From a phage, in sequence record PZ465523.1: 49,119 nucleotides of DNA; one strand, written 5' to 3'. Each line of letters starts with the position of its first letter. Position 1 is the first letter of the stretch. Positions 2,925-41,274 of this stretch are shown in pieces. A model generated the notes under the pieces. That model was not told the origin of the DNA, ran no database searches, and saw nothing but the letters and a program-made list of their open reading frames with translations. The position numbers were made by a program, and so were the translations under genes.

Positions 2925-2947
2925 GCCCCTTCCGGGGCTTTTCTTTT
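2924..2947. terminator. Hairpin terminator between convergent genes
   Basis: AGCCCCTTCCGGGGCT stem followed by T-run. Confidence 0.6.
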
Positions 2948-3173
2948 ACATCGAGCAATCGTGAGACTTGAAGTTATTCTCTGATACGTAGTTGAAGGAG
3001 AATGGGTATCCAGCACGTAACAGCATCTCATCACCGCGCATCTTAGATCCAAAAACGTAAACCGAGTAATCTTCACCGCCTGATTCATAAATTGCCGTAC
3101 AAGTGCGCTCAGGCATCGATGAACAACCAGTCAGGATGAATGCCGCAGTAATAATGGTGATTAACTTTTTCAT
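2946..3173 (-). CDS. cor: Cor-like superinfection-exclusion lipoprotein (75 aa)
   Basis: N-terminal signal peptide with lipobox (ILTGC); position after tail genes as in T1-like phages; RBS GAGGA before ATG at 3173. Confidence 0.6.
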   Translation of the reverse strand: MKKLITIITAAFILTGCSSMPERTCTAIYESGGEDYSVYVFGSKMRGDEMLLRAGYPFSFNYVSENNFKSHDCSM

Positions 3174-3698
3174 TTGTATGTCCTCGTCGTTAGTGTGATT
3201 GCATTGTATGTCGCATTTACTTTTATTGCAATAGCGCAATTACAATTTTTTTCGTGTAACGGGTGTCTATTTTTGTAACTGGAGATGGTGTTACAAAATC
3301 TACCACATCCGAACGCAGGTAGATATGATAAAAACTCTATATAATATATATAGATAGATAATATTTAATTTTAGCTTTATATATAATTATTGTTGTGTAA
3401 CAGTTGTCTATCGTGTAACAGGTGATTTTATTGATTCGTCAAATTTCTATCATATATGTTCAAAATTTAATCAATATTGATTCTATTCATGGATATCTGT
3501 GTATTTCTAAGAAAATGCTGTTACAAGTATTACACAATAGACACCACATAAAAACATTACTAAGATATTGATTGCGTTGACACTGGTTGTAACTTGAGCG
3601 ATATAGACACGCGGTTACACTCCAATTATATGTATTCTATTGACTAAACGCTGTTAATGGCTATAATTGACTCATCGTAAACGAAGGAGATAAACGCA
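3174..3698. promoter_or_regulatory. AT-rich divergent control region with GTTACA / TAGACA repeats and TA-repeat tract
   Basis: No plausible ORF; shares 13-mers GGTGTTACAAAAT (3287..3299) and AGATAGATAATAT (3352..3364) with region 22165..22856. Confidence 0.5.
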
Positions 3699-7561: not shown

Positions 7562-7582
7562 AAAAAACCGCCCGAGGGCGGT
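7562..7582 (-). terminator. Rho-independent terminator after primase gene
   Basis: CCGCCCGAGGGCGG stem with U-run on minus strand. Confidence 0.65.
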
Positions 7583-8517
7583 TAGAGTAGATCGCTTGCT
7601 GAGAATAATTTGGCTTGCATTCCTGAACGGTATCCTCCAGGGTTCGGGATTATTATTTTTAATTGTCTGTCGTCAGCCATGTATAAAGTCTCCTTATCTG
7701 AAGGCTCGCAAGCAACCCTTACCTCGCGATCACCCTTGTATCTGTACGCAACCATTTCGAGATTTTCAGGAGTGAAGCAGGACCATACCTCTTGCTTTGT
7801 GTGAAATGCAATATGCTGAGCATCAATCCAATTAAGGCATAAGTAGATCGCTTTTTCAGTTTTACCAGTCACGGCAACCGAGCAACTTGTGTATTTCTTC
7901 GCGTAGAATGACTCCCTTCCTTCCTCATCAATAATCAAAATATTGCAGAACTCATCATCAAGCCCGTCCTCGTGTACAAGTTGACAAGGTATAGTGTGAA
8001 ATACGCTCTCCCCTCCATCCTCGCGACGTTTTACGCCAACGTCGAATGATTCAGTAGGCAGTGACTCAAACATGCTTAATGGAGTGTTTACGCGCCTCTC
8101 TGTGCGACCCATGACTTTCATCACTGCTTCATGATCTGCCATCATGACATTGACACCAGACACCGGAGTCCGGCGCGCTTTCTTGTTTGCCTTGACGATG
8201 TATTCCTGCGGAACCTTTCCGAGAAATCTCCCCAGGATGTTTATACATTCACTGTACGGCATACCAGTTAATTTCATCAACCAACCTATCCCGGAGTCGT
8301 TACCGCATGAGTTGCAGATCGCACCGCCGTCGCCAGGAGTATTCAGGTTATCAGTCCAGCGAAAGCGGTCTTTACCCCCGCAGTTAGGGCAAGGTTGGTG
8401 CTTCTTATTAAAAATATCATTCGGCAATCCGCATATTGACTGGAAAGCCTCGCGCCATAACCCCTTCATGTACGGCAATACGTCCTCTTTCTGAAACATC
8501 ATAAATTCTTCGTTCAC
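7582..8517 (-). CDS. DNA primase-like protein with N-terminal Cys4 zinc ribbon
   Basis: CPNCGG...CNSCG zinc-binding motif and acidic IIDEEG stretch; GTG start with GGAG 8 nt upstream. Confidence 0.55.
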   Translation of the reverse strand: MNEEFMMFQKEDVLPYMKGLWREAFQSICGLPNDIFNKKHQPCPNCGGKDRFRWTDNLNTPGDGGAICNSCGNDSGIGWLMKLTGMPYSECINILGRFLGKVPQEYIVKANKKARRTPVSGVNVMMADHEAVMKVMGRTERRVNTPLSMFESLPTESFDVGVKRREDGGESVFHTIPCQLVHEDGLDDEFCNILIIDEEGRESFYAKKYTSCSVAVTGKTEKAIYLCLNWIDAQHIAFHTKQEVWSCFTPENLEMVAYRYKGDREVRVACEPSDKETLYMADDRQLKIIIPNPGGYRSGMQAKLFSASDLL

Positions 8518-8577
8518 TTCCAGATCTCCAAATAAAAAACGCGTAGAAGGATGTTAACCCGCTACGCGTCGTTTGTT

Positions 8578-9030
8578 TTAACTAAAAATGCTATTTGTCG
8601 TTCCGATATCTTCCTTCTTCACGACGCGCATAAATTTCTTGTTCTTGCATCGCTTCTCAAGGCACTTGCCGTTACCGTCAAACTTCAGATCGAATCGAAG
8701 CCATGCGGCCCGAAACCCTTTGCAACCCTGACGGCGGTAAGCGCGATGTGCAGATTCAGCACCTTGCCACGAAATCATATTGCGATCCTTCCAGCCTTGC
8801 ACGGTCTGATTGCTAACCTTCAGAGCTTTTGCGCAGGCCGCTGGTCCGCCGTAATATTCAATAAGAGCGTCAAGTCGCGCTCGCAGTCCCGCTCGTGTTT
8901 CTTCTTTATGAATATAGAAGCCGCAGCGCTGTCGAGGCTTTTTGTCTTTACCGCGTCGCGTTCCGTTGTTACCATTAATGTGACGTTTATCGATTTCACC
9001 AGTTGACTCTGCGATACGTTGTATATTCAT
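8578..9030 (-). CDS. Helix-turn-helix DNA-binding protein, candidate regulator
   Basis: Cro/YdaS-like HTH segment GGPAACAKALKVSNQTVQGWK; basic N-terminus; start set at ATG 9030 after RBS AGGAGAA. Confidence 0.6.
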   Translation of the reverse strand: MNIQRIAESTGEIDKRHINGNNGTRRGKDKKPRQRCGFYIHKEETRAGLRARLDALIEYYGGPAACAKALKVSNQTVQGWKDRNMISWQGAESAHRAYRRQGCKGFRAAWLRFDLKFDGNGKCLEKRCKNKKFMRVVKKEDIGTTNSIFS

Positions 9031-9043
9031 ATTAATTCTCCTG

Positions 9044-9086
9044 TAGCACTTTTTGCTAAAAACGTTTACTGTATGTCGTGTATTAT
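9044..9086 (+). promoter_or_regulatory. Box-type promoter: TAGCACTTTTTGCTAAAAA, 22 nt, TATTAT
   Basis: Box plus -10-like hexamer at fixed spacing, upstream of helicase gene. Confidence 0.55.
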
Positions 9087-9124
9087 AGCGTAAACGATAC
9101 AACGATTCAAAGGATTAAATAGCC

Positions 9125-11143
9125 GTGACAATTAACATCAAGAAGCAAATCGCATTACTTGGCGAGGACTATATAAAACGCACTCAAGAACGATTCACTG
9201 TCGGTGATGTCGTTCCTTATCCGTATCAGGTTGTTGCTTATGCCGAGATCGCAAAACGCCTGTCAAATTACGAGCATCCATTCTTTGTTAAAGCGTCAGT
9301 ATCTGCGGGTAAAACAATCATATTCGCTATGGTGGCAAAGCAGTGTCAAAAAATGGGCCTGAAAATGCTTGTGCTTGCCCGGCAGGGTGAGATTGTCGAT
9401 CAGGATAGTGAGGAGATCGACAACTTCGGGGTAACGAACTCCATCTTCTCAGCATCGCTTGGAATCAAGTCCTGCTACTTCCCGATCGTGGTTGGCTCTG
9501 AGGGTACGGTTGCAAATGGCCTCGACAATGAGTTGGCTGATTTTGTCCCGCATGTAATTGGGATCGACGAATGTCACCAGGTGGATTGGGAAGATCTTGC
9601 GCAAGCCATCGAAGGAAAGGAAACGATGGAGCAGATGAAGGGCGAGAAAGGGAAAGTTATTATGGACGGGGAGATTCCTCTGATTGGTAATGACGGGAAA
9701 CCTTTACTTGGAACTAAGCGAAGCCAGTACACGATCGTAATTATGGAGATGATGCGTCGCTGTAAAGAGATTCACGGGCATGACCTCAGAATATTTGGCA
9801 TGACAGGATCTGAATTTAGGGGCGTTGTTCCGATTCTAGTGGAGAATCCAAAGGCGTTAGGATTCTGGCGTGAGCGCGTAACTGATATCGATACAAACTA
9901 TCTGATTGAGTTCGGCTCTGTTGTGCCGACGATATTCGGCTCTACTGACGGCGTACACTACGATCTTGATAAGTTCAAGGCATCAAGCGAGGACGGCGTA
10001 CAGGACTTTACAGAGAAAGATATGAAGGCAATGGAAAATGAGATCCTTCATGATAAATCTCTTACTCAGCGAATAATGCAAATGGTCGCCAAAAAGGCTG
10101 AAGAACGTAACGCGGTTCTGATTACATGCGCTGGGGTGCGTCACTGTAAAGAGGCGGCGGCGGCACTGCCTCCAGGAAGCACCTATGCAATAATCACTGG
10201 CGACACAGACACCAAAACGCGCAAGAAGATTCTGGACGATGTGAGGGCTGGGAAAATTAAATACACCTTTCAGGTAATGGCGCTAACTACTGGCGTTAAC
10301 GTTCCAAATTGGGATTTCAGCGTAATACTTCGCAAGATAGGATCGCTCACTCTGTTGATTCAGCTTTTGGGTAGGGGGATGCGCCTGCTTAAATCATGGC
10401 AGGTTGCTGAAGGAATGGTTAAGCAAGACCATCTGGTATGGGATTTCGCTGGCACTATGGATGAGTTGGGCCAACTTTATTTCGATCCGATACTTGAGCA
10501 GGCTCAATTCCAGAAGCGATTCGAAAACGGCAAAGACCCGAAAACGTGCCCTAAGTGTGGCTGCGTTAATAGCTTCTACGCTCGCAGATGCGTTAACGTT
10601 ATCGACGGTGAACGTTGCGATTATTTCTGGACTTCTCAGATTTGCGAGGACCAGGTGGATGAGCGTACTGGTAAAATCCTTGTTAAAGGGTGTGGTGCTG
10701 AGAATGACGTTGTTGCCCGGGTATGTCGTTGTTGTGATGTTTCTCTTGTCGATCCGAACTTGAAGCTATCCGGGAAGGCGTACACTAAGAATGACTGGTA
10801 CGAGGTAAAGAATTTTGAGGTTACGCTAACCAAAAACCAAAAGGGCGTTATATACAAATACACGCTGATTGATGATGAAGGTGATGAGTTCAAGGCGTAT
10901 GAAAAATTCTTCCCTGAGTCAGACTCTAAGATTTGCGGTACGCTATGGAAAACAAAAGGTGTATTACCTCATGTGTCAGATCCTAAAATGCGCCGCTACT
11001 TTATCGGAATGAAGAACGCCATCAAGATTTTGCAATACTCACATCATATTGCTCACCCGGTGCGCGTAACTCATCGTCGCAACCAGAAGAAAGAAGATAT
11101 TATCTCACGCAAAGACTTCGGTATGGAGGATATCCCGGAATGA
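9125..11143 (+). CDS. SF2 (DExH-type) ATP-dependent helicase with C-terminal zinc ribbon
   Basis: Walker A-like SAGKT, motif II GIDECHQ, C-terminal CPKCGC...C cluster; GTG start. Confidence 0.7.
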   Translation: MTINIKKQIALLGEDYIKRTQERFTVGDVVPYPYQVVAYAEIAKRLSNYEHPFFVKASVSAGKTIIFAMVAKQCQKMGLKMLVLARQGEIVDQDSEEIDNFGVTNSIFSASLGIKSCYFPIVVGSEGTVANGLDNELADFVPHVIGIDECHQVDWEDLAQAIEGKETMEQMKGEKGKVIMDGEIPLIGNDGKPLLGTKRSQYTIVIMEMMRRCKEIHGHDLRIFGMTGSEFRGVVPILVENPKALGFWRERVTDIDTNYLIEFGSVVPTIFGSTDGVHYDLDKFKASSEDGVQDFTEKDMKAMENEILHDKSLTQRIMQMVAKKAEERNAVLITCAGVRHCKEAAAALPPGSTYAIITGDTDTKTRKKILDDVRAGKIKYTFQVMALTTGVNVPNWDFSVILRKIGSLTLLIQLLGRGMRLLKSWQVAEGMVKQDHLVWDFAGTMDELGQLYFDPILEQAQFQKRFENGKDPKTCPKCGCVNSFYARRCVNVIDGERCDYFWTSQICEDQVDERTGKILVKGCGAENDVVARVCRCCDVSLVDPNLKLSGKAYTKNDWYEVKNFEVTLTKNQKGVIYKYTLIDDEGDEFKAYEKFFPESDSKICGTLWKTKGVLPHVSDPKMRRYFIGMKNAIKILQYSHHIAHPVRVTHRRNQKKEDIISRKDFGMEDIPE

Positions 11144-11556
11144 TTACAGACAATGGTGATTATTTAGAGTTTTACGAGCGAGATCCTAGCGACACTCGAA
11201 AGGAGGACGCTCATCAGGTGGATTGCGTGTCCTGGCTGAAATACAATTTCCCTCACCTTCTATTTTGGCACACTGTCAATGAAGGTGAAAAAACAATCAC
11301 ATCGGCACTAAGGGATGAACAAGCTGGATTACTTAAAGGCGTGTCAGACTTCGTTATCCTGATTGGTGTCAACTCACGATACCCGTTTGCAGCAATAGAA
11401 CTCAAGCGGGTTAATAAGTCAGGCAAAGGAAAGGCGTCACCAGTCAGCGATAAGCAAAGGGAGTTTCTTCGAAAGGTCCGGGAGCGTGGAGGCTTCTCTG
11501 CCGTCGCATACGGATTCGCGCAATTCAAGATCTCAATTTACGAAATGATGAAATAG
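11140..11556 (+). CDS. VRR-NUC-like nuclease domain protein
   Basis: 138 aa with conserved D...E.K spacing typical of VRR-NUC; start overlaps helicase stop. Confidence 0.5.
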   Translation: MITDNGDYLEFYERDPSDTRKEDAHQVDCVSWLKYNFPHLLFWHTVNEGEKTITSALRDEQAGLLKGVSDFVILIGVNSRYPFAAIELKRVNKSGKGKASPVSDKQREFLRKVRERGGFSAVAYGFAQFKISIYEMMK

Positions 11557-11596
11557 CACTTTTTGTTAAAACTGCCGGAATGGAATCTGGCATTAT
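11552..11596 (+). promoter_or_regulatory. Box-type promoter: AATAGCACTTTTTGTTAAAA, 22 nt, CATTAT
   Basis: Upstream of Dam gene; box overlaps stop of VRR-NUC gene. Confidence 0.55.
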
Positions 11597-14815: not shown

Positions 14816-14836
14816 CAATATCATTCATCACCTTAC

Positions 14837-14869
14837 AGGCTGGCATGATTTACATGCTGGCCTTTTTGC
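14837..14869 (+). terminator. Rho-independent terminator
   Basis: 11-bp stem with two G-U pairs, 5-nt loop, then UUUUU. Confidence 0.65.
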
Positions 14870-14933
14870 GTTGTATCAATTAAATTTGAAGGTTAAAATC
14901 GACTCACTTGTTCAAAAAATATATGGTGAGATT

Positions 14934-15149
14934 ATGAAAGAATTTTTAACAGCAGCTACGTCAAGCACGGGCGGTGCTTCGTTGGTAGGGGCAGCGACAG
15001 GTCAACTTTATATTGCTGGCGCTACATTCATTTGCTTTCTGCTTTTTGGCGCTTGGGGAGCGTACTGGAAGTATCGCGATAGCAAGGCAATTCAGGAAGC
15101 GTTAAACGATGGCGATCTAAATAAGGCGCTTAAGATCAGGGGGAGATAA
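14934..15149 (+). CDS. Holin, single-TMD, possibly pinholin-like
   Basis: 71 aa with hydrophobic helix [21 protein letters not shown]; immediately upstream of endolysin. Confidence 0.55.
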
Positions 15150-16304: not shown

Positions 16305-16350
16305 AATATACCCGATACGAGATCGGGTGTTTTAACAAAAAGTGCTATTT
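16305..16350 (-). promoter_or_regulatory. Box-type promoter: AAATAGCACTTTTTGTTAAAA, 22 nt, TATATT
   Basis: Hairpin CCCGAT-ctcgt-ATCGGG in spacer. Confidence 0.55.
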
Positions 16351-16868: not shown

Positions 16869-18437
16869 TTAACCCATCAGTCGAGGATTTATGAAAACAA
16901 TATCATCAATACGGCAAGTGTAATTCATCTCTTCTAGCGTGATTAGAAGACTGTCGATTCGCTCAGATACTTTCTGTTGACCGTTGAACGGAGTAACGTT
17001 CCGGCACTTTGCAACAATACTATGAATAGGTGCGCGGCCTTTGTTCTTCTTCGCGATCTCAGTGATAACATCAATCAGCTTACGAGATTCAGCCTCATCA
17101 CCAGCATACCCGGCAGCGCTGGCAGACGACAGATAAGTCCTGGAAAGCTCATTGAAGATCATGATCGCTTCCTGCATTGTTTCAAGGTCAATCTCACGGT
17201 TGGAACGGTTCGGTGATTCACCCTCCCAATTCTTGATCGTGTGGAGAACCGAAGCAATACGCAAAGCGTGCTTATCGAACTTGCCGAGATGACCGCGAAG
17301 CATTGAGTGAGAGTATTTCCCCCCGGCGGCGAAATCAGGCTCCATCGCCTGGCGCGCAAGGTTTAATTCACGCATAGCATTACGGCTCACAGAGAGAACA
17401 ACGTTGTCCTCCTTCATGATGTTGTGCACGAGTCTGTAATATTTGCTAACCAGTCCGCGATCGACTTCCTTATACAGCGCATCGCCATTTTCATCACAAA
17501 GAATACGAGTACCTAAAAGCGGCTCCTCGCGAACCAACAAGAAACGTTCGGATACACCTATACCGCGCTGGCCTGCATCCATGATGCCCTTGATTGTTTC
17601 ATCCTGCGCAATGACGCAGATCGAACCGACCGGGCAAAGAGATAAGTTGTTGTCCTGATTTGAACGCGCGACCTCCATATGGTTTTTATCCCACGCCTTA
17701 AGGATAAGCTCACTGTTAGATTTCTTATCTGAACCGCCATACGTAAGCCCGAGCAATGTATTGATTGCCGTTGCCTCGTCAGATATTACGGAAAAGTGAC
17801 CTTGCACTGCCGCCACTTTCGCAAGACCTTCAGGTGTAGGATCTGATACAGCGAAAACAATATCAGCCATCTTCTTGATCTTCTCTTCCAGCTTTTCTTT
17901 GTCCTCGTACAGAGCCGCCGTCGTGTTGCCTTTAGGATCGTTTTTTATTTCCTTCTCGACCTGACGTAGCTGACTGGTTAAACGGATACGTTCCTTTTTG
18001 CGCTCTTCATTCAGTCGCTGAATCTCCGCACGCATAGGTGTAATCGCCGCTGAGTTAATCGCTGATTTACCTGTTGATGGTGGCTGACTGATTACCATGT
18101 AAAGCGCTGTCGGCTGTTCTTCTCCATGATATTGCACCCAAAACTTCCCGAGCATCGCGGCTGATATGCAACCGATAAAATGAGCATACGCGGATGAAAC
18201 CGGGAACTGGACTGATTCAGCTTTTGCTTTTGCATATTCGAATACCAGGTTATCGCCACCTAACGAAATCAGAGGGAACTTATCGTTTCCGCTGTTGATA
18301 TCGATCGGATCTTGCCAAAAAGAAACTGAATCCCCGTAACTGTTTTCACGAATTGCGATCGCCACCGGATTCACTCCAGTGCTATTTGCGATCTCAATAA
18401 TTTGTTGGTAATTCAGTTTTGGCTTAATGTTAAACAT
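16869..18437 (-). CDS. Large early protein, possibly replication-associated; function unresolved
   Basis: 523 aa; start set at ATG 18437 after RBS AAGGAG; no clear Walker A. Confidence 0.6.
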   Translation of the reverse strand: MFNIKPKLNYQQIIEIANSTGVNPVAIAIRENSYGDSVSFWQDPIDINSGNDKFPLISLGGDNLVFEYAKAKAESVQFPVSSAYAHFIGCISAAMLGKFWVQYHGEEQPTALYMVISQPPSTGKSAINSAAITPMRAEIQRLNEERKKERIRLTSQLRQVEKEIKNDPKGNTTAALYEDKEKLEEKIKKMADIVFAVSDPTPEGLAKVAAVQGHFSVISDEATAINTLLGLTYGGSDKKSNSELILKAWDKNHMEVARSNQDNNLSLCPVGSICVIAQDETIKGIMDAGQRGIGVSERFLLVREEPLLGTRILCDENGDALYKEVDRGLVSKYYRLVHNIMKEDNVVLSVSRNAMRELNLARQAMEPDFAAGGKYSHSMLRGHLGKFDKHALRIASVLHTIKNWEGESPNRSNREIDLETMQEAIMIFNELSRTYLSSASAAGYAGDEAESRKLIDVITEIAKKNKGRAPIHSIVAKCRNVTPFNGQQKVSERIDSLLITLEEMNYTCRIDDIVFINPRLMG

Positions 18438-21432: not shown

Positions 21433-21478
21433 ATTATGCCAAACTACCCCGATCGAGTTTTAACAAAAAGTGCTATTT
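21433..21478 (-). promoter_or_regulatory. Box-type promoter: AAATAGCACTTTTTGTTAAAA, 22 nt, CATAAT
   Basis: Box encodes the Dcm C-terminus NSTFC and its stop. Confidence 0.55.
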
Positions 21479-22164: not shown

Positions 22165-22197
22165 TGCAAATCTCCTGCTGATTGGTTGATGTGATGA

Positions 22198-22242
22198 ATC
22201 ATACCCTGCCAACATAGCTAAGTCGTTAGCAAAAAATGCTAT
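22198..22242 (-). promoter_or_regulatory. Box-type promoter variant: AATAGCATTTTTTGCTAAC, 23 nt, TATGAT
   Basis: Immediately upstream of Dcm leader CAACCAATCAGCAGGAG. Confidence 0.5.
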
Positions 22243-22427
22243 TCCAATAGTTGCTCATTATTCCATCAATAGTGGAATAGTTGGAATAATTTTGATTGTG
22301 ATTGATTGCGAATGATTAAACGTGATTATTGCATTGTGTGCAACAGTTGGTTGATTTGTTGATGAGAATGCAATGATTGTGAGAGGGAGGATTTAGTGTT
22401 ACCCGGTTCGCTTGGTAGTCACCTCCA

Positions 22428-22447
22428 TTTTTAGCAAAAAGTGCTAT
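22428..22447 (-). promoter_or_regulatory. Box GATAGCACTTTTTGCTAAAA without a matching -10 at the usual spacing
   Basis: Distal-most box of the leftward arm, followed by hairpin GGAGG...CCTCC. Confidence 0.45.
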
Positions 22448-22856
22448 CCGTCTATATCTTCGTTGTAATTGTCGTAATAGTTGTATACTATCGGGGGTGT
22501 TACAAAATGGCCCCGAAGGGATGGGCCTATATATACTAAAATATCTATATATAATAATAAGATAGATAATATATATATATTTATTTATTATATTATATAT
22601 TGGTATGTAATCGGCGTAATAGGTGCAACCGCATTTTTGGAAGGTGGCATATATTTCAGGGTGCATAGTATAAAAAACATACTATTCCGCGCGTCGAAAT
22701 GGATGTGTGTGCTTTTATAGAAAAAGTCGGTTGCATCGGTTGCACTGGTTACAAAAATAAAAAATGCAGCTATAGACATTGACGCGCCTAGCCAGGTTGC
22801 TGTAACATGTTTTTCGGGGCGGCAAGTTACGCCCGTAGACAACGAGGTATAGACAA

Positions 22857-23603: not shown

Positions 23604-23648
23604 AATAGCACTTTTTGTTAAAACCGGATCGGAATAACCTGGTATAGT
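23604..23648 (+). promoter_or_regulatory. Box-type promoter: AATAGCACTTTTTGTTAAAA, 22 nt, TATAGT
   Basis: Read directly; upstream of gene 23680..24168. Confidence 0.55.
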
Positions 23649-26254: not shown

Positions 26255-26473
26255 ATGGCTACTATCATGACAGCAGAAGATGCAGCACGCGACGCAGTGG
26301 AAGGGATGCGCCCAAATAGCTCCAGAATCGCCCACTACTACAAATCTGATGTGTCGGCAGTGCAATTGGTCCATGAGATTTTAAGGCTACCACAAGTCGA
26401 TTCAGCGCGCGTGGTGACGTGCTTAAAAAATTATTTTTGCATCACTATTAAAACGAATAGCACGAATTGCTAA
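26255..26473 (+). CDS. Hypothetical protein (72 aa)
   Basis: ATG start; C-terminus NSTNC encoded by the box. Confidence 0.45.
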   Translation: MATIMTAEDAARDAVEGMRPNSSRIAHYYKSDVSAVQLVHEILRLPQVDSARVVTCLKNYFCITIKTNSTNC

Positions 26474-26500
26474 AACCTATCAAGGGGAATGCGCTATGAT
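26456..26500 (+). promoter_or_regulatory. Box-type promoter: AATAGCACGAATTGCTAAAA, 22 nt, TATGAT
   Basis: Hairpin GGGGAAT-gcgctatg-ATTCCCC. Confidence 0.55.
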
Positions 26501-26530
26501 TCCCCTACACCAACAAACGAGGAATCACTA

Positions 26531-26890
26531 ATGAAACACTTAATTTGCATTGAAACGCCTAACGATGAATACACTCTTCACGGTATCGGAATGTTCAAAG
26601 GTCACTACATGACAGCAAGCATTCATGATGCGCGACTATGCGATGGCGATCTGATGATTATATCAAAAGAAGTAAATCCGTACATTATGCAGAATCTTGG
26701 CAATAACGAATATATGGCATACGGCTGCAACGCCGTGTACAAGCATATCAAGATCCGCAAGCGTGTCGTGCGTGCATTCAAGAAGATTGCAATGAAATAC
26801 TGGAAGATGAGCAAGAAGGACGCCGGACGCTGGCGCGCAATGTTGCTGACTCGTACTTCTATCGTAACGGTGAGTCCCGCTACTTCCTGA
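26531..26890 (+). CDS. Hypothetical protein; C-terminal region may continue in another frame
   Basis: RBS CGAGGAA; alternative frame 26707..26976 encodes a more protein-like tail ending SCW. Confidence 0.45.
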   Translation: MKHLICIETPNDEYTLHGIGMFKGHYMTASIHDARLCDGDLMIISKEVNPYIMQNLGNNEYMAYGCNAVYKHIKIRKRVVRAFKKIAMKYWKMSKKDAGRWRAMLLTRTSIVTVSPATS

Positions 26891-27907: not shown

Positions 27908-28476
27908 AAACAGCTATCATTTTAAACGGCGCACCTAGAGCGGGAAAAGACACTATCGGATGCATCCTGGCTGACACTTACGATCACGTAGCGCTCCGCA
28001 GCTTCAAGGCTCCAATGTTTGAGATTGCCCGGGCAATCCTGGGTGAAGCTAACTACGAGTATTTCATGTTCTTGTATGATGACCGTCGATATAAAGAAGA
28101 GCCAGCATCAATCCTGAACGGTAAAAGCCCGCGCCAGTTTATGATCTGGATTAGCGAGGAAGTCATCAAGCCGCAGTTCGGAAATCGCTTCTTCGGTATG
28201 CGAGCGGAAAGCGAGGTGAAAGAGTCGAACTCCCTTTCGGTATTTACTGATGGTGGATTCAAAGACGAAATCTTGCAGATGATTGAAGGTGATATCCAAG
28301 TCAAGCTATGCCGCATACATCGCAACGGCTGCAACTTCGATAACGACAGTCGAGATTATATCTACTTGGATGATATGATCGGTGTCAACGGTTATCAGGA
28401 ATGTGATTTCTTCTCTGTCGAAGGTCATCCAGAAATTACCGCTCAGCACATAGCCGCCACGTTCATCAATAAATAG
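27904..28476 (+). CDS. P-loop nucleotide or polynucleotide kinase
   Basis: Walker A NGAPRAGKDT near N-terminus; stop TAG inside box. Confidence 0.6.
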   Translation: MKTAIILNGAPRAGKDTIGCILADTYDHVALRSFKAPMFEIARAILGEANYEYFMFLYDDRRYKEEPASILNGKSPRQFMIWISEEVIKPQFGNRFFGMRAESEVKESNSLSVFTDGGFKDEILQMIEGDIQVKLCRIHRNGCNFDNDSRDYIYLDDMIGVNGYQECDFFSVEGHPEITAQHIAATFINK

Positions 28477-28516
28477 CACGAATTGCTAAAACGTCGATGG
28501 GGTGATTTGATATAGT
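28472..28516 (+). promoter_or_regulatory. Box-type promoter: AATAGCACGAATTGCTAAAA, 22 nt, TATAGT
   Basis: Read directly; kinase stop embedded. Confidence 0.55.
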
Positions 28517-37484: not shown

Positions 37485-37512
37485 TTGACGCTTTAACAAA
37501 AAGTGCTATTAT
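37485..37512 (+). promoter_or_regulatory. Sigma70-like promoter (TTGACG, 16 nt, TATTAT) with reversed box in the spacer
   Basis: Read directly; upstream of major capsid gene. Confidence 0.55.
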
Positions 37513-41254: not shown

Positions 41255-41274
41255 TTTTAACAAAAAGTGCTATC
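41255..41274. promoter_or_regulatory. Reversed box TTTTAACAAAAAGTGCTATC directly before tail chaperone leader
   Basis: Followed by CAACCAATCAGGAGAA and ATG. Confidence 0.5.

What the first reader, a model, noticed from the sequence alone, without database searches (positions are those of the whole stretch)
3174..3698. Two AT-rich divergent control regions that share 13-bp motifs
Both divergent intergenic regions (3174..3698 and 22165..22856) have TA-repeat tracts and repeated GTTACA / TAGACA elements, and share exact 13-mers GGTGTTACAAAAT (3287 and 22496) and AGATAGATAATAT (3352 and 22560). These look like paired early promoter hubs with an unwinding element, and possibly replication origins or binding arrays for a host or phage factor.
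Basis: seen in the sequence. Interest (0 to 1): 0.5.

Follow-up and report, generated by a model that had tools for sequence, protein, structure and literature searches.

The report
Paired AT-rich origin-like phage modules
The two shared 13-mers are landmarks of a conserved ~175-bp DNA module, short repeats on both sides of an almost pure A+T core, that occurs twice in this T1-like phage and in every related phage genus examined; it is best read as a candidate replication origin that has not been described before, but no experiment has tested this.

Summary
The window is a T1-like coliphage (Tunavirus). Both 13-mers are exact, unique in the window and colinear (offsets 19209 and 19208). They belong to a diverged ~175-bp duplicated module, 3251-3425 and 22459-22626. 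Both copies share one layout: hexamer array, GGTGTTACAAAAT, a hypervariable GC spacer, a 65-75-bp core of 5-10% GC, then a second hexamer array. The cores are the two least stable duplex segments of the genome (z 6.5 and 5.5). They are also better conserved among relatives (97-99% identity) than the flanking genes.

TLS, KLPN1 and JulesPiccard, from other genera, have the same pair at the same two places: upstream of exoVIII and upstream of the first early gene. Their flanking repeats are genus-specific, and the two copies within a genome resemble each other most.

The best reading (about 0.4) is a pair of iteron-flanked unwinding elements, that is, replication origins. A candidate binder is the phage's MCM-like helicase, which has a predicted C-terminal winged helix, as in SaPI origins. 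The main rival (about 0.3) is an operator and architecture element for the two early operons; published work shows that Pir represses PrecE. The two readings could both hold.

A small-RNA or terminator reading, DnaA boxes and a pac site are not supported.

The parts
3203..3231 (-). Pcor: sigma70-like promoter TTGCAA-17-TACAAT for the cor gene (2946-3173, minus strand)
   Evidence: Promoter scan. The 3174-3240 segment is 95.5% conserved across 13 Tunavirus genomes.
3241..3279 (+). Module A, left hexamer array: TGTAAC (3255), TGTCTA (3265), TGTAAC (3274), spaced 10 and 9 bp. It is the left copy of a 30-nt direct repeat (3241-3270 and 3382-3411, 141 bp apart).
3287..3299 (+). Shared 13-mer 1, GGTGTTACAAAAT. 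It carries the innermost, inverted GTTACA hexamer.
   Evidence: Unique in the window. Invariant in 13 Tunavirus genomes.
3300..3325 (.). Hypervariable GC-rich spacer with an imperfect dyad (CTACC...GGTAG)
   Evidence: 65% of columns vary and pairwise identity is 80%. Base pairing is not significantly conserved.
3326..3392 (.). Module A, AT core (candidate DNA unwinding element). It contains shared 13-mer 2, AGATAGATAATAT, at 3352-3364.
   Evidence: Second least stable 60-mer of the window (3329-3389, z 5.5, GC 10%). Pairwise identity is 98.9% across 13 genomes.
3393..3425 (+). Module A, right hexamer array: TGTAAC (3396), TGTCTA (3406), TGTAAC (3414)
   Evidence: 95.7% conserved.
3520..3546 (+). 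Promoter-side array P1, in inverted orientation: GTTACA, TTACAC, ATAGACAC
3578..3621 (+). TTGACA, TTGTAAC and the composite ATAGACACgcgGTTACAC (array P2). It lies inside the 150-bp stretch that corresponds to the T1 PrecE reporter fragment shown to be repressed by Pir.
   Evidence: PMC6737242.
3640..3667 (+). PrecE core promoter, TTGACT-16-TATAAT (11 of 12 consensus positions), driving the exoVIII-erf-ssb operon
   Evidence: 100% invariant in 13 genomes. The promoter is active in T1 reporter constructs (PMC6737242).
22224..22242 (-). Pir-box-type upstream element (ATAGCATTTTTTGCTAACG), followed by a -10 (GGGTATGAT), of the leftward methylase operon
22429..22447 (-). Perfect Pir box (ATAGCACTTTTTGCTAAAA) with no recognisable -10 at the family's fixed distance
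22464..22486 (+). Module B, left array: TGTAAT (22464) and CGTAAT (22474), 10 bp apart, then TTGTAT. It is the left copy of a 20-nt direct repeat (22464-22483 and 22606-22625, 142 bp apart).
22496..22508 (+). Shared 13-mer 1, GGTGTTACAAAAT
   Evidence: Conserved in 5 of the 6 genomes that carry this B module.
22509..22527 (.). Variable GC-rich spacer with an imperfect dyad (GGCCC...GGGCC)
   Evidence: 40% of columns vary.
22528..22602 (.). Module B, AT core. It contains shared 13-mer 2 at 22560-22572.
   Evidence: Least stable 60-mer of the window (22540-22600, z 6.5, GC 5%). 97.2% conserved.
22603..22626 (+). Module B, right array: TGTAAT (22606) and CGTAAT (22616)
22722..22808 (+). Block 22722-22783, invariant in 6 genomes (GGTTGCA twice, GGTTACAAAAAT, TATAGACA), followed by the rightward promoter TTGACG-18-TAACAT (22779-22808). 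The promoter's -10 overlaps a TGTAAC hexamer.
   Evidence: T1 has the analogous TTGACA...TGTAACAC.
16869..18437 (-). Candidate trans factor: a 522-aa DUF3987 protein, predicted to be an MCM-like AAA+ helicase with a C-terminal winged helix (residues 447-522)
8578..9030 (-). Pir homologue (Cro-like HTH regulator, T1 Orf23), encoded next to the primase gene
   Evidence: PMC6737242.

Best explanation
Each region contains one copy of a polar cis-acting module of about 175 bp. From left to right the module has:
- two to three direct TGTAAC/TGTCTA-type hexamers spaced about one helical turn apart;
- one inverted GTTACA hexamer, inside 13-mer 1;
- a GC-rich spacer of about 20-25 bp whose sequence is free to vary;
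- a 65-75-bp core of 90-95% A+T, containing 13-mer 2;
- a second direct hexamer array.

I propose that the two modules are the phage's replication origins, or an origin plus an auxiliary cis-replication site. A phage-encoded sequence-specific protein would bind the hexamers on both sides and melt the AT core, and the phage primase and helicases would then load there. The best candidate binder is the MCM-like DUF3987 helicase, through its C-terminal winged helix, as in the self-loading Rep helicases of SaPI islands. The same hexamers recur beside or over the two rightward early promoters, so the same protein may also turn down early transcription.

What is shown: the module's anatomy, the paralogy of the two copies, their conservation, their extreme duplex instability, the family-wide pairing, and the predicted fold of the helicase.

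What is inferred: that any protein binds the hexamers, which protein it is, and that replication starts there.
For: 1. The two cores are the deepest duplex-stability minima of the genome (z 6.5 and 5.5; the next is 3.7).
2. The same holds in three other genera, with minima at the same two places. TLS: positions 216 and 28823, z 5.1. KLPN1: 207 and 33927, z 5.7 and 5.3. JulesPiccard: 39811 and 22409, z 5.1 and 5.3. In each genome the next minimum is z 3.6 or less.
3. The two copies within a genome are paralogous: z 10.9 in the window, 13.4 in TLS, 24.6 in KLPN1 and 13.1 in T1. Cross-genus similarity is weaker (z 0.7-7.5). This fits two sites that keep matching one genus-specific trans factor.
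4. The flanking repeats differ by genus: GTTACA/TAGACA in Tunavirus; GTTACA in JulesPiccard; GTTCAC/GAACA-type repeats seen by eye in TLS and BubbaBully; ten ATCTTAC/GTAAGAT copies in KLPN1. The innermost pair is inverted across the core: 106-107 bp apart in the window and about 112 bp apart in KLPN1.
5. The core and arrays are 96-99% identical among Tunavirus genomes, where flanking coding sequence is 92-95% and other intergenic DNA 83-88%.
6. The module is still there where the region is not divergent: in TLS it lies between a tail gene and recE, and in KLPN1 between the primase gene and exoVIII. It is therefore tied to the exoVIII/replication cluster, not to divergent transcription.
7. The architecture matches the SaPI origin as described in PMC9371898: 5-6-nt iterons on both sides of a central AT-rich region, with iterons in opposite directions, bound by the winged helix of a self-loading helicase.
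8. The phage encodes an MCM-like helicase with a predicted C-terminal winged helix. That winged helix is the helicase's most divergent part between genera: 38-60% identity against 58-77% for the AAA+ core.
9. No origin has been reported for T1-like phages: the TLS and SU57 papers looked for one and found none.
Against: - There is no experimental evidence of any kind for initiation at these sites.
- Both copies lie 180-300 bp upstream of early operons, and the hexamers also occur at the early promoters. A purely transcriptional role would explain that placement just as well.
- In SaPIs the origin lies next to the rep gene. Here the helicase gene is 13 kb from module A and 4 kb from module B.
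- The winged-helix domain shows no specific match to repeat type: window against JulesPiccard (both GTTACA) is 45% identical, the same as window against TLS.
- Unwinding elements usually tolerate sequence change, but this core is nearly invariant, which points to an additional sequence-specific constraint.
- GC skew follows gene orientation and is uninformative.
- No DnaA-box cluster is present.
Confidence: 0.4

Rival explanations
1. Transcriptional control element. The hexamer arrays would be operators for a phage regulator that shuts down or tunes the two early operons and cor. Candidates are Pir acting on variant sites, Orf65, or an unknown early-gene repressor. The AT core would be an architectural element (curved or easily bent DNA, an RNA-polymerase or nucleoid-protein sink) that insulates or boosts the divergent promoters. 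This reading is compatible with the origin reading if one protein does both jobs.
For: - GTTACA/TAGACA hexamers also lie next to or over promoters: ATAGACACgcgGTTACAC at 3603-3620, just upstream of PrecE; TGTAACAT as the -10 at 22801-22808; the analogous TGTAACAC in T1.
- In T1, a 150-bp recE promoter fragment is active, is repressed by Pir and is inhibited by cAMP-CRP (PMC6737242).
- ATAGACAC resembles the 5' half of the Pir box, ATAGCAC.
- Both module copies lie upstream of early operons and are co-oriented with them in all four genera.
Against: - The core lies 180-250 bp upstream of the promoters, too far for an UP element. The T1 150-bp reporter fragment lacks it and is still active.
- The Pir box is conserved across genera while the flanking repeats differ, so Pir is unlikely to be the array binder.
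- Operator arrays do not need a 65-75-bp core of over 90% A+T that is the genome-wide stability minimum and nearly invariant.
Confidence: 0.3
2. A small RNA gene of about 60-90 nt on the minus strand. It would start in or right of the AT core, near 13-mer 2, and end at the GC dyad plus the ATTTTGT tract, which is the reverse complement of 13-mer 1.
For: - The dyad is followed on the minus strand by ATTTTGTAACACC in both copies.
- The minus-strand fold is the more stable one in 13 of 13 region-A homologues, helped by G-U pairs.
- A TAAAAT hexamer lies at the Pir-box family's -10 distance from ATAGACAactGTTACAC (3411 to 3395, minus strand).
- The authors of PMC6737242 speculated about a phage-encoded small RNA.
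Against: - Pairing is not conserved beyond chance: 71% of cells are paired, but 254 of 500 shuffles do as well.
- RNAalifold finds no hairpin.
- Hairpin z-scores are weak: mean -1.09 on the minus strand, and +0.48 for T1 itself.
- Stems are only 4-7 bp, with loops of about 9-13 nt.
- There is no Rfam match.
- The GC dyad is absent from the cores of TLS, BubbaBully, JulesPiccard and KLPN1.
Confidence: 0.07
3. Packaging (pac) or terminase recognition element, because region B lies at the conventional ends of T1-type genome records.
For: Position 1 of the T1 and Chapo records maps to about window 22326-22328, some 170 bp left of module B. The SU57 paper places pac in this untranslated region in T1-like phages.
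Against: - Module A lies in the middle of the genome. From memory of the older T1 literature, not checked here, T1 packages unidirectionally from a single pac site.
- The record start lies outside the module.
- The TLS authors assigned pac by restriction mapping plus similarity to the P22 pac sequence, and describe no AT-rich module there.
Confidence: 0.04

Closest known systems
SaPI (Staphylococcus aureus pathogenicity island) replication origins bound by self-loading Rep helicases
   Same: Short 5-6-nt iterons on both sides of a central AT-rich region, with iterons pointing in opposite directions. Iteron sequence differs between elements. The binder is a hexameric AAA+ helicase (SF3, or MCM-like SF6) that uses a C-terminal winged helix (PMC9371898). 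The phage here has hexamer arrays on both sides of an AT core with an inverted inner pair, and it encodes an MCM-like helicase with a predicted C-terminal winged helix.
   Different: The SaPI origin lies immediately downstream of rep, whereas here the helicase gene is 4-13 kb away. There are two copies per genome. Two hexamer types alternate (TGTAAC and TGTCTA). A GC-rich variable spacer sits on one side of the core. Binding has not been tested.
Bacillus phage SPP1 oriL/oriR and satellite phage P4 ori/crr
   Same: Two separated cis sites per genome that carry the same initiator-binding repeats next to AT-rich DNA.
   Different: The initiators are different (SPP1 G38P; the P4 alpha primase-helicase, whose iteron is TGTTCACC). 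There is no sequence relationship. The role of the second site here is unknown.
Transcription-primed origins of T7 (promoters phi1.1A/B plus an AT-rich region) and T4 (oriF, oriG) (recalled from memory)
   Same: A polar arrangement of a conserved upstream element followed by an AT-rich unwinding element, in a virulent coliphage that forms concatemers by recombination.
   Different: No convincing promoter reads into the core. The best candidates, TTGTAA-15-CAAAAT (A) and TTGTAT-16-CAAAAT (B), are read by eye from the sequence, match only 8 of 12 consensus positions and were not picked up by the scans. T1-type phages have no RNA polymerase of their own.
The 21-nt intergenic repeat of TLS and T1-like phages (aaATAGCACnnnTTGnTAAAA; Kropinski and co-workers, PMC11447400)
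   Same: It is a repeated intergenic element of the same phage family. Two copies lie in region B on the minus strand, and the promoter-side ATAGACAC elements resemble its 5' half.
   Different: It is a different element. It has 26 co-oriented copies, most followed by a -10 at a fixed 17-nt distance, and it is conserved across genera. It is absent from region A and from the shared module. Neither 13-mer belongs to it.

Membership tests
Iteron-flanked replication origin (SaPI or plasmid type) | Arrays of short repeats on both sides of an AT-rich region, with at least one pair in opposite orientation | tested here: met
   Module A has TGTAAC, TGTCTA, TGTAAC, then inverted GTTACA, then the core, then TGTAAC, TGTCTA, TGTAAC. 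Module B has the same order with TGTAAT and CGTAAT. KLPN1 has AATCTTAC, core, GTAAGATT.
Iteron-flanked replication origin (SaPI or plasmid type) | An easily melted DNA unwinding element | tested here: met
   The cores are the two least stable 60-mers genome-wide in the window, TLS, KLPN1 and JulesPiccard (z 5.1-6.5). This is a nearest-neighbour calculation only; stress-induced duplex destabilisation was not modelled.
Iteron-flanked replication origin (SaPI or plasmid type) | Specific binding of the cognate initiator to the repeats | not testable with these tools
   Only a candidate exists: the MCM-like DUF3987 helicase with a predicted winged helix. A test for covariation between the winged helix and repeat type was inconclusive.
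Iteron-flanked replication origin (SaPI or plasmid type) | Replication actually initiates at the site | not testable with these tools
   No marker-frequency or mapping data were available. GC skew follows transcription.
Iteron-flanked replication origin (SaPI or plasmid type) | Origin adjacent to the initiator gene | tested here: not met
   The DUF3987 helicase gene lies at 16869-18437, 13 kb from module A and 4 kb from module B. The primase, Pir and SF2-helicase genes lie at 7582-11143.
DnaA-dependent, oriC-like origin | A cluster of DnaA boxes (TTWTNCACA) | tested here: not met
   94 matches with up to 1 mismatch against 104 expected. Region A has three one-mismatch sites, region B has one, and neither has a perfect box.
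Intrinsic terminator or small RNA gene | A conserved stable hairpin followed by a U tract, with compensatory changes | tested here: inconclusive
   An ATTTTGT tract is present and the minus strand folds better. But pairing is no better than shuffles, z-scores are weak, and there is no Rfam family match.
Drexlerviridae 21-nt repeat (Pir-box promoter family) | ATAGCACnnnTTGnTAAAA, followed 17 nt later by a -10 hexamer, co-oriented with the downstream gene | tested here: not met
   There is no copy in region A or inside either module. Region B has two copies on the minus strand, outside the module.
Divergent sigma70 promoter region | Back-to-back promoters for the flanking genes | tested here: met
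   Pcor and PrecE in region A; a Pir-box promoter and TTGACG-18-TAACAT in region B. PrecE activity is shown experimentally in T1 (PMC6737242). These promoters lie outside the shared module.

The most novel reading that the evidence does not exclude
Every Drexlerviridae genome would carry two co-evolving origins, each placed upstream of an early operon. The phage's own MCM-like helicase would load itself at them through its winged helix, and the same binding sites would act as operators that switch off early transcription. That would be an SV40- or SaPI-style coupling of initiator and origin in a classic virulent coliphage whose origin has never been found.
Probability: 0.25. Interest if true: 0.65.

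Novelty: new member of a known kind. Interest (0 to 1): 0.5.

Why it matters
T1 is one of the seven original T phages, yet the papers I could read report no replication origin for T1-like phages: the TLS authors found no origin-type repeats, and the SU57 authors found no oriC-like origin. This analysis turns a pair of shared 13-mers into a defined, family-wide and directly testable candidate. It gives two about 175-bp modules with exact coordinates, a predicted architecture and a candidate binding protein. If confirmed, it would do four things:
- supply the missing origins of Drexlerviridae;
- show an MCM-like self-loading helicase system working in a virulent coliphage;
- explain why the two sites evolve in concert;
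- provide parts for engineering T1-type phages, such as origin-dependent plasmids, or targets for defence or interference.

If the sites turn out to be purely regulatory, they still define an uncharacterised operator system for the early genes.

Tried and rejected
- **Chance or low complexity.** Rejected by the shuffle tests and by independent BLAST cross-hits.
- **Small RNA or terminator.** Rfam gave only noise. The fixed-structure pair count was no better than shuffles, RNAalifold found no hairpin, and per-sequence z-scores were weak. Not supported.
- **Small ORFs inside the regions.** Only short, AT-biased ORFs with no support. T1's annotated 46-aa ORF lies right of the module, in a less conserved stretch.
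- **DnaA boxes and IHF sites.** No enrichment.
- **GC skew as an origin marker.** It follows gene orientation and is uninformative.
- **Pattern scan of IMG/VR** with 13-mer 1 plus CCGAA. It returned 32 mostly unrelated contigs and was not useful.
- **T1-like plasmid prophages.** A search with region A found no match in 5,426 complete E. coli genomes or in 72,556 plasmids, so these collections give no sign of the reported extrachromosomal prophage state.
- **Mobile-element (MITE-like) reading of module B.** Rejected. In T1 the stretch from about 22449 through the first early gene is replaced by different sequence, which looks like mosaic exchange rather than a clean insertion. The position is also the same in four genera.
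- **Covariation between the helicase winged helix and repeat type.** Inconclusive.
- **Literature.** The T1 (Virology 2004) and Rtp genome papers are not held in the library, so I cannot exclude that they mention these AT-rich tracts. The T1 GenBank record annotates nothing there except promoters, ribosome-binding sites and one small ORF.
Full report
**Identity and context.** The window is a T1-like siphovirus genome (Tunavirus, Drexlerviridae). Region A is 91-93% identical to phages Lg3, ADB-2 and T1, and region B is 95% identical to Shigella phage phiL. Region A (3174-3698) is the gap between cor (minus strand) and the exoVIII-erf-ssb operon (plus strand). Region B (22165-22856) is the gap between a leftward DNA-methylase operon and the first rightward early gene. 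It spans the place where T1-type GenBank records conventionally begin and end: position 1 of the T1 and Chapo records maps to about window 22326-22328.

**Observation.** Both 13-mers are exact and unique in the window. They are colinear, with offsets 19209 and 19208, and a third shared 9-mer lies between them at offset 19210. A gapped local alignment extends over about 175 bp, 3251-3425 against 22459-22626. Rescored with stricter penalties, it gives 73, against 41 +/- 5 (maximum 58) for shuffles that keep the AT-rich core in place; shared 13-mers number 2 against 0.024 expected. BLAST with the B module finds the B locus in only five phages (phiL, SH6, AV106, DELF2, Chapo). In T1 and others it finds the A locus instead, at about 72% identity (E 3e-5 to 3e-6). 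The A module is present in all 61 Tunavirus records that cover at least 80% of the query. All five (TA)n runs with n >= 4 in the genome lie in the two cores.

**Anatomy.** The two copies share one polar layout:
- Left, a direct array of hexamers about one helical turn apart. In A these are TGTAAC 3255, TGTCTA 3265 and TGTAAC 3274. In B they are TGTAAT 22464 and CGTAAT 22474.
- Then 13-mer 1, which carries an inverted GTTACA.
- Then a GC-rich spacer of 19-26 bp with an imperfect dyad.
- Then a 65-75-bp core of 5-10% GC that contains 13-mer 2.
- Then a second direct array. In A: TGTAAC 3396, TGTCTA 3406, TGTAAC 3414. In B: TGTAAT 22606, CGTAAT 22616.

Longer direct repeats bracket the core at 141 bp (A) and 142 bp (B). 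Further hexamers, in inverted orientation, lie nearer the rightward promoters (3520-3546, 3588-3621, 22748-22856).

The promoters themselves are separate from the module. PrecE is TTGACT-16-TATAAT at 3640-3667 and Pcor lies at 3231-3203 on the minus strand. The rightward promoter of region B is TTGACG-18-TAACAT at 22779-22808.

**Conservation footprint.** I aligned 13 Tunavirus genomes for region A and 6 for region B.

| Segment | Mean pairwise identity | Variable columns |
|---|---|---|
| AT core, A | 98.9% | 7% |
| AT core, B | 97.2% | 6.7% |
| Right array, A | 95.7% | 18% |
| Right array, B | 97.8% | 4% |
| GC spacer, A | 80.3% | 65% |
| GC spacer, B | 79.6% | 40% |
| Other intergenic stretches, A | 83-88% | 37-43% |
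| Ends of flanking genes, A | 92-95% | 19-24% |
| PrecE core promoter | 100% | 0% |

13-mer 1 is invariant in the 13 region-A genomes. In A, only the PrecE core promoter is better conserved than the AT core. The core is therefore under sequence-specific purifying selection, while the spacer is free to vary at nearly constant length.

**Duplex stability.** With nearest-neighbour energies, the two cores are the two least stable 60-mers of the 49-kb genome: 22540-22600 (z 6.5) and 3329-3389 (z 5.5). The next is 3426-3486, adjacent to module A, at z 3.7.

**The pairing is family-wide.** I fetched the region upstream of exoVIII from four other genera, whose exoVIII proteins are 45-63% identical to the window's: TLS, BubbaBully, KLPN1 and JulesPiccard. 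Each has a core of 12-17% GC containing ATCTATATAATA-like and TTATTATTATATATA-like strings. Each core is flanked by genus-specific repeats: GTTCAC/GAACA-type repeats seen by eye in TLS and BubbaBully, ten ATCTTAC/GTAAGAT copies in KLPN1, and GTTACA in JulesPiccard.

In the whole genomes of TLS, KLPN1 and JulesPiccard, the two deepest stability minima (z 5.1-5.7; next 3.6 or less) are again one upstream of exoVIII and one upstream of the first early gene. The two copies within a genome align strongly: z 10.9 in the window, 13.4 in TLS, 24.6 in KLPN1 and 13.1 in T1 itself. Cross-genus scores are weaker (z 0.7-7.5). Both copies have the same orientation relative to the downstream operon. This holds even in KLPN1, where exoVIII is on the opposite strand of the record.

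In TLS and KLPN1 the exoVIII-proximal module does not sit in a divergent region at all. So the module is a conserved, paired, polar cis element whose repeats co-evolve within each lineage. That is what one expects of two sites read by one lineage-specific DNA-binding protein.

**What else is in the regions: the Pir-box promoter family.** The 21-nt repeat described for TLS (aaATAGCACnnnTTGnTAAAA) has a function its authors list as an open question (PMC11447400). It occurs 26 times here with up to 3 mismatches, against 2 expected, and is co-oriented with the genes in nearly every case.

Aligning the copies shows a -10 hexamer (consensus gGTAtaaT) exactly 17 nt downstream, and no canonical -35. 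This is the signature of an activator-dependent promoter. Laganenka et al. showed that T1 Pir (Orf23, a Cro-like HTH protein encoded next to the primase gene) activates Pdam and Phol and represses Ppir and PrecE. They also showed that cAMP-CRP inhibits Ppir, Pdam and PrecE (PMC6737242).

- The dam copy (11553-11571) lies inside the stretch corresponding to their 150-bp reporter fragment.
- The equivalent stretch upstream of hol holds only a degenerate copy.
- Region B holds two Pir boxes on the minus strand, outside the module. One drives the methylase operon. The other is a perfect box with no -10.
- Region A holds none. Its promoter-side ATAGACAC-N3-GTTACAC elements resemble the box only in the 5' half.
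- The Pir box is conserved across genera while the module's repeats are not, so Pir is probably not the protein that reads the arrays.

**Candidate binder.** Among the replication genes, 16869-18437 (minus strand, 522 aa) is a DUF3987 protein. An AlphaFold model built on 36 homologues has pLDDT 88.5 and pTM 0.86. Its closest structural matches are:

**Weighing the readings.** The origin reading best explains five things: the extreme and conserved instability, the arrays on both sides with an inverted inner pair, the lineage-specific repeats with concerted evolution, the independence from divergent transcription, and the presence of a suitable initiator-helicase. It remains an inference from architecture (confidence about 0.4).

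The regulatory reading (about 0.3) is supported by the hexamers at the promoters, by the placement upstream of early operons, and by published Pir repression of PrecE. The two readings could both hold if one protein serves as initiator and early-gene repressor.

The small-RNA or terminator reading has in its favour the dyad followed by ATTTTGT and a minus strand that folds better in 13 of 13 homologues. It fails on three counts: covariation (254 of 500 shuffles do as well), RNAalifold and z-scores (mean -1.09; +0.48 for T1). The dyad is also absent from the other genera.

A pac role would fit only module B. DnaA boxes and IHF sites are not enriched. GC skew only mirrors gene orientation.

**Novelty.** The T1 record annotates no origin or repeat feature here. 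The TLS and SU57 papers state that no origin-type repeats or origin were found. The T1 and Rtp genome papers could not be read. As far as I can tell, the paired module is an undescribed member of a known kind of element.

Noticed in passing
window, 26 sites, e.g. 11553-11571 (+), 16330-16348 (-), 21458-21476 (-), 23605-23623 (+), 26457-26475 (+), 28473-28491 (+): The 21-nt intergenic repeat of T1-like phages, whose function the TLS authors list as an open question, aligns to aATAGCACTwwTTGyTAAAa-N17-gGTAtaaT. That is a promoter family with a fixed-distance -10 and no canonical -35, so it probably depends on an activator. Published work shows that Pir activates Pdam, and the stretch matching that reporter fragment carries a perfect copy. 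This points to Pir as the activator.
   Followed up: partly
window 22429-22447 (-): A perfect Pir box (ATAGCACTTTTTGCTAAAA) with no -10-like hexamer at the family's fixed distance. It may be a pure binding site between module B and the real leftward promoter at 22224-22242.
   Followed up: no
window 37491-37509 (-) and 41255-41273 (-): Two good Pir-box copies lie in intergenic gaps of the late structural operon but point antisense to it. They may be antisense promoters or simply regulator binding sites.
   Followed up: no
window about 26831 (ORF 26489-26890): The homologue of T1 Orf65, a regulator that represses pir according to PMC6737242, has a 1-bp deletion relative to T1 (GGG to GG). This shifts the frame for the last 47 codons or so. 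It is either a real inactivating mutation or a sequencing error.
   Followed up: partly
[not shown]
   Followed up: yes
window 3378-3379 (alignment gap after 3377): This phage lacks one TA unit that is present in all 12 other Tunavirus region-A cores. This indel is one of the core's five variable alignment columns, most likely TA-repeat slippage.
   Followed up: no
window 14816-14934: The 150 bp upstream of the holin gene (14935-15149) contains a terminator and only a degenerate Pir-box-like string (GAAGGTTAAAA-N17-AAAATATATGG). Yet Phol is reported to be Pir-activated in T1. T1 also carries an HNH endonuclease gene (Orf15) upstream of this region that the window lacks.
   Followed up: partly
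L003 (from locus position 1376 to its end) joined to L004 1-538 (T1 region B): T1's own region B carries a more diverged copy of the module. Its left side is replaced by other direct repeats: GATTACG twice, AAATTACGCC twice and CGATTAACA three times. Its right half still aligns with T1 region A (z 13).
   Followed up: partly
E. coli genomes and plasmids collections: Region A of this T1-like phage has no match in 5,426 complete E. coli genomes or in 72,556 PLSDB plasmids. These collections therefore show no sign of the stable extrachromosomal T1 prophage state reported in PMC6737242.
   Followed up: partly
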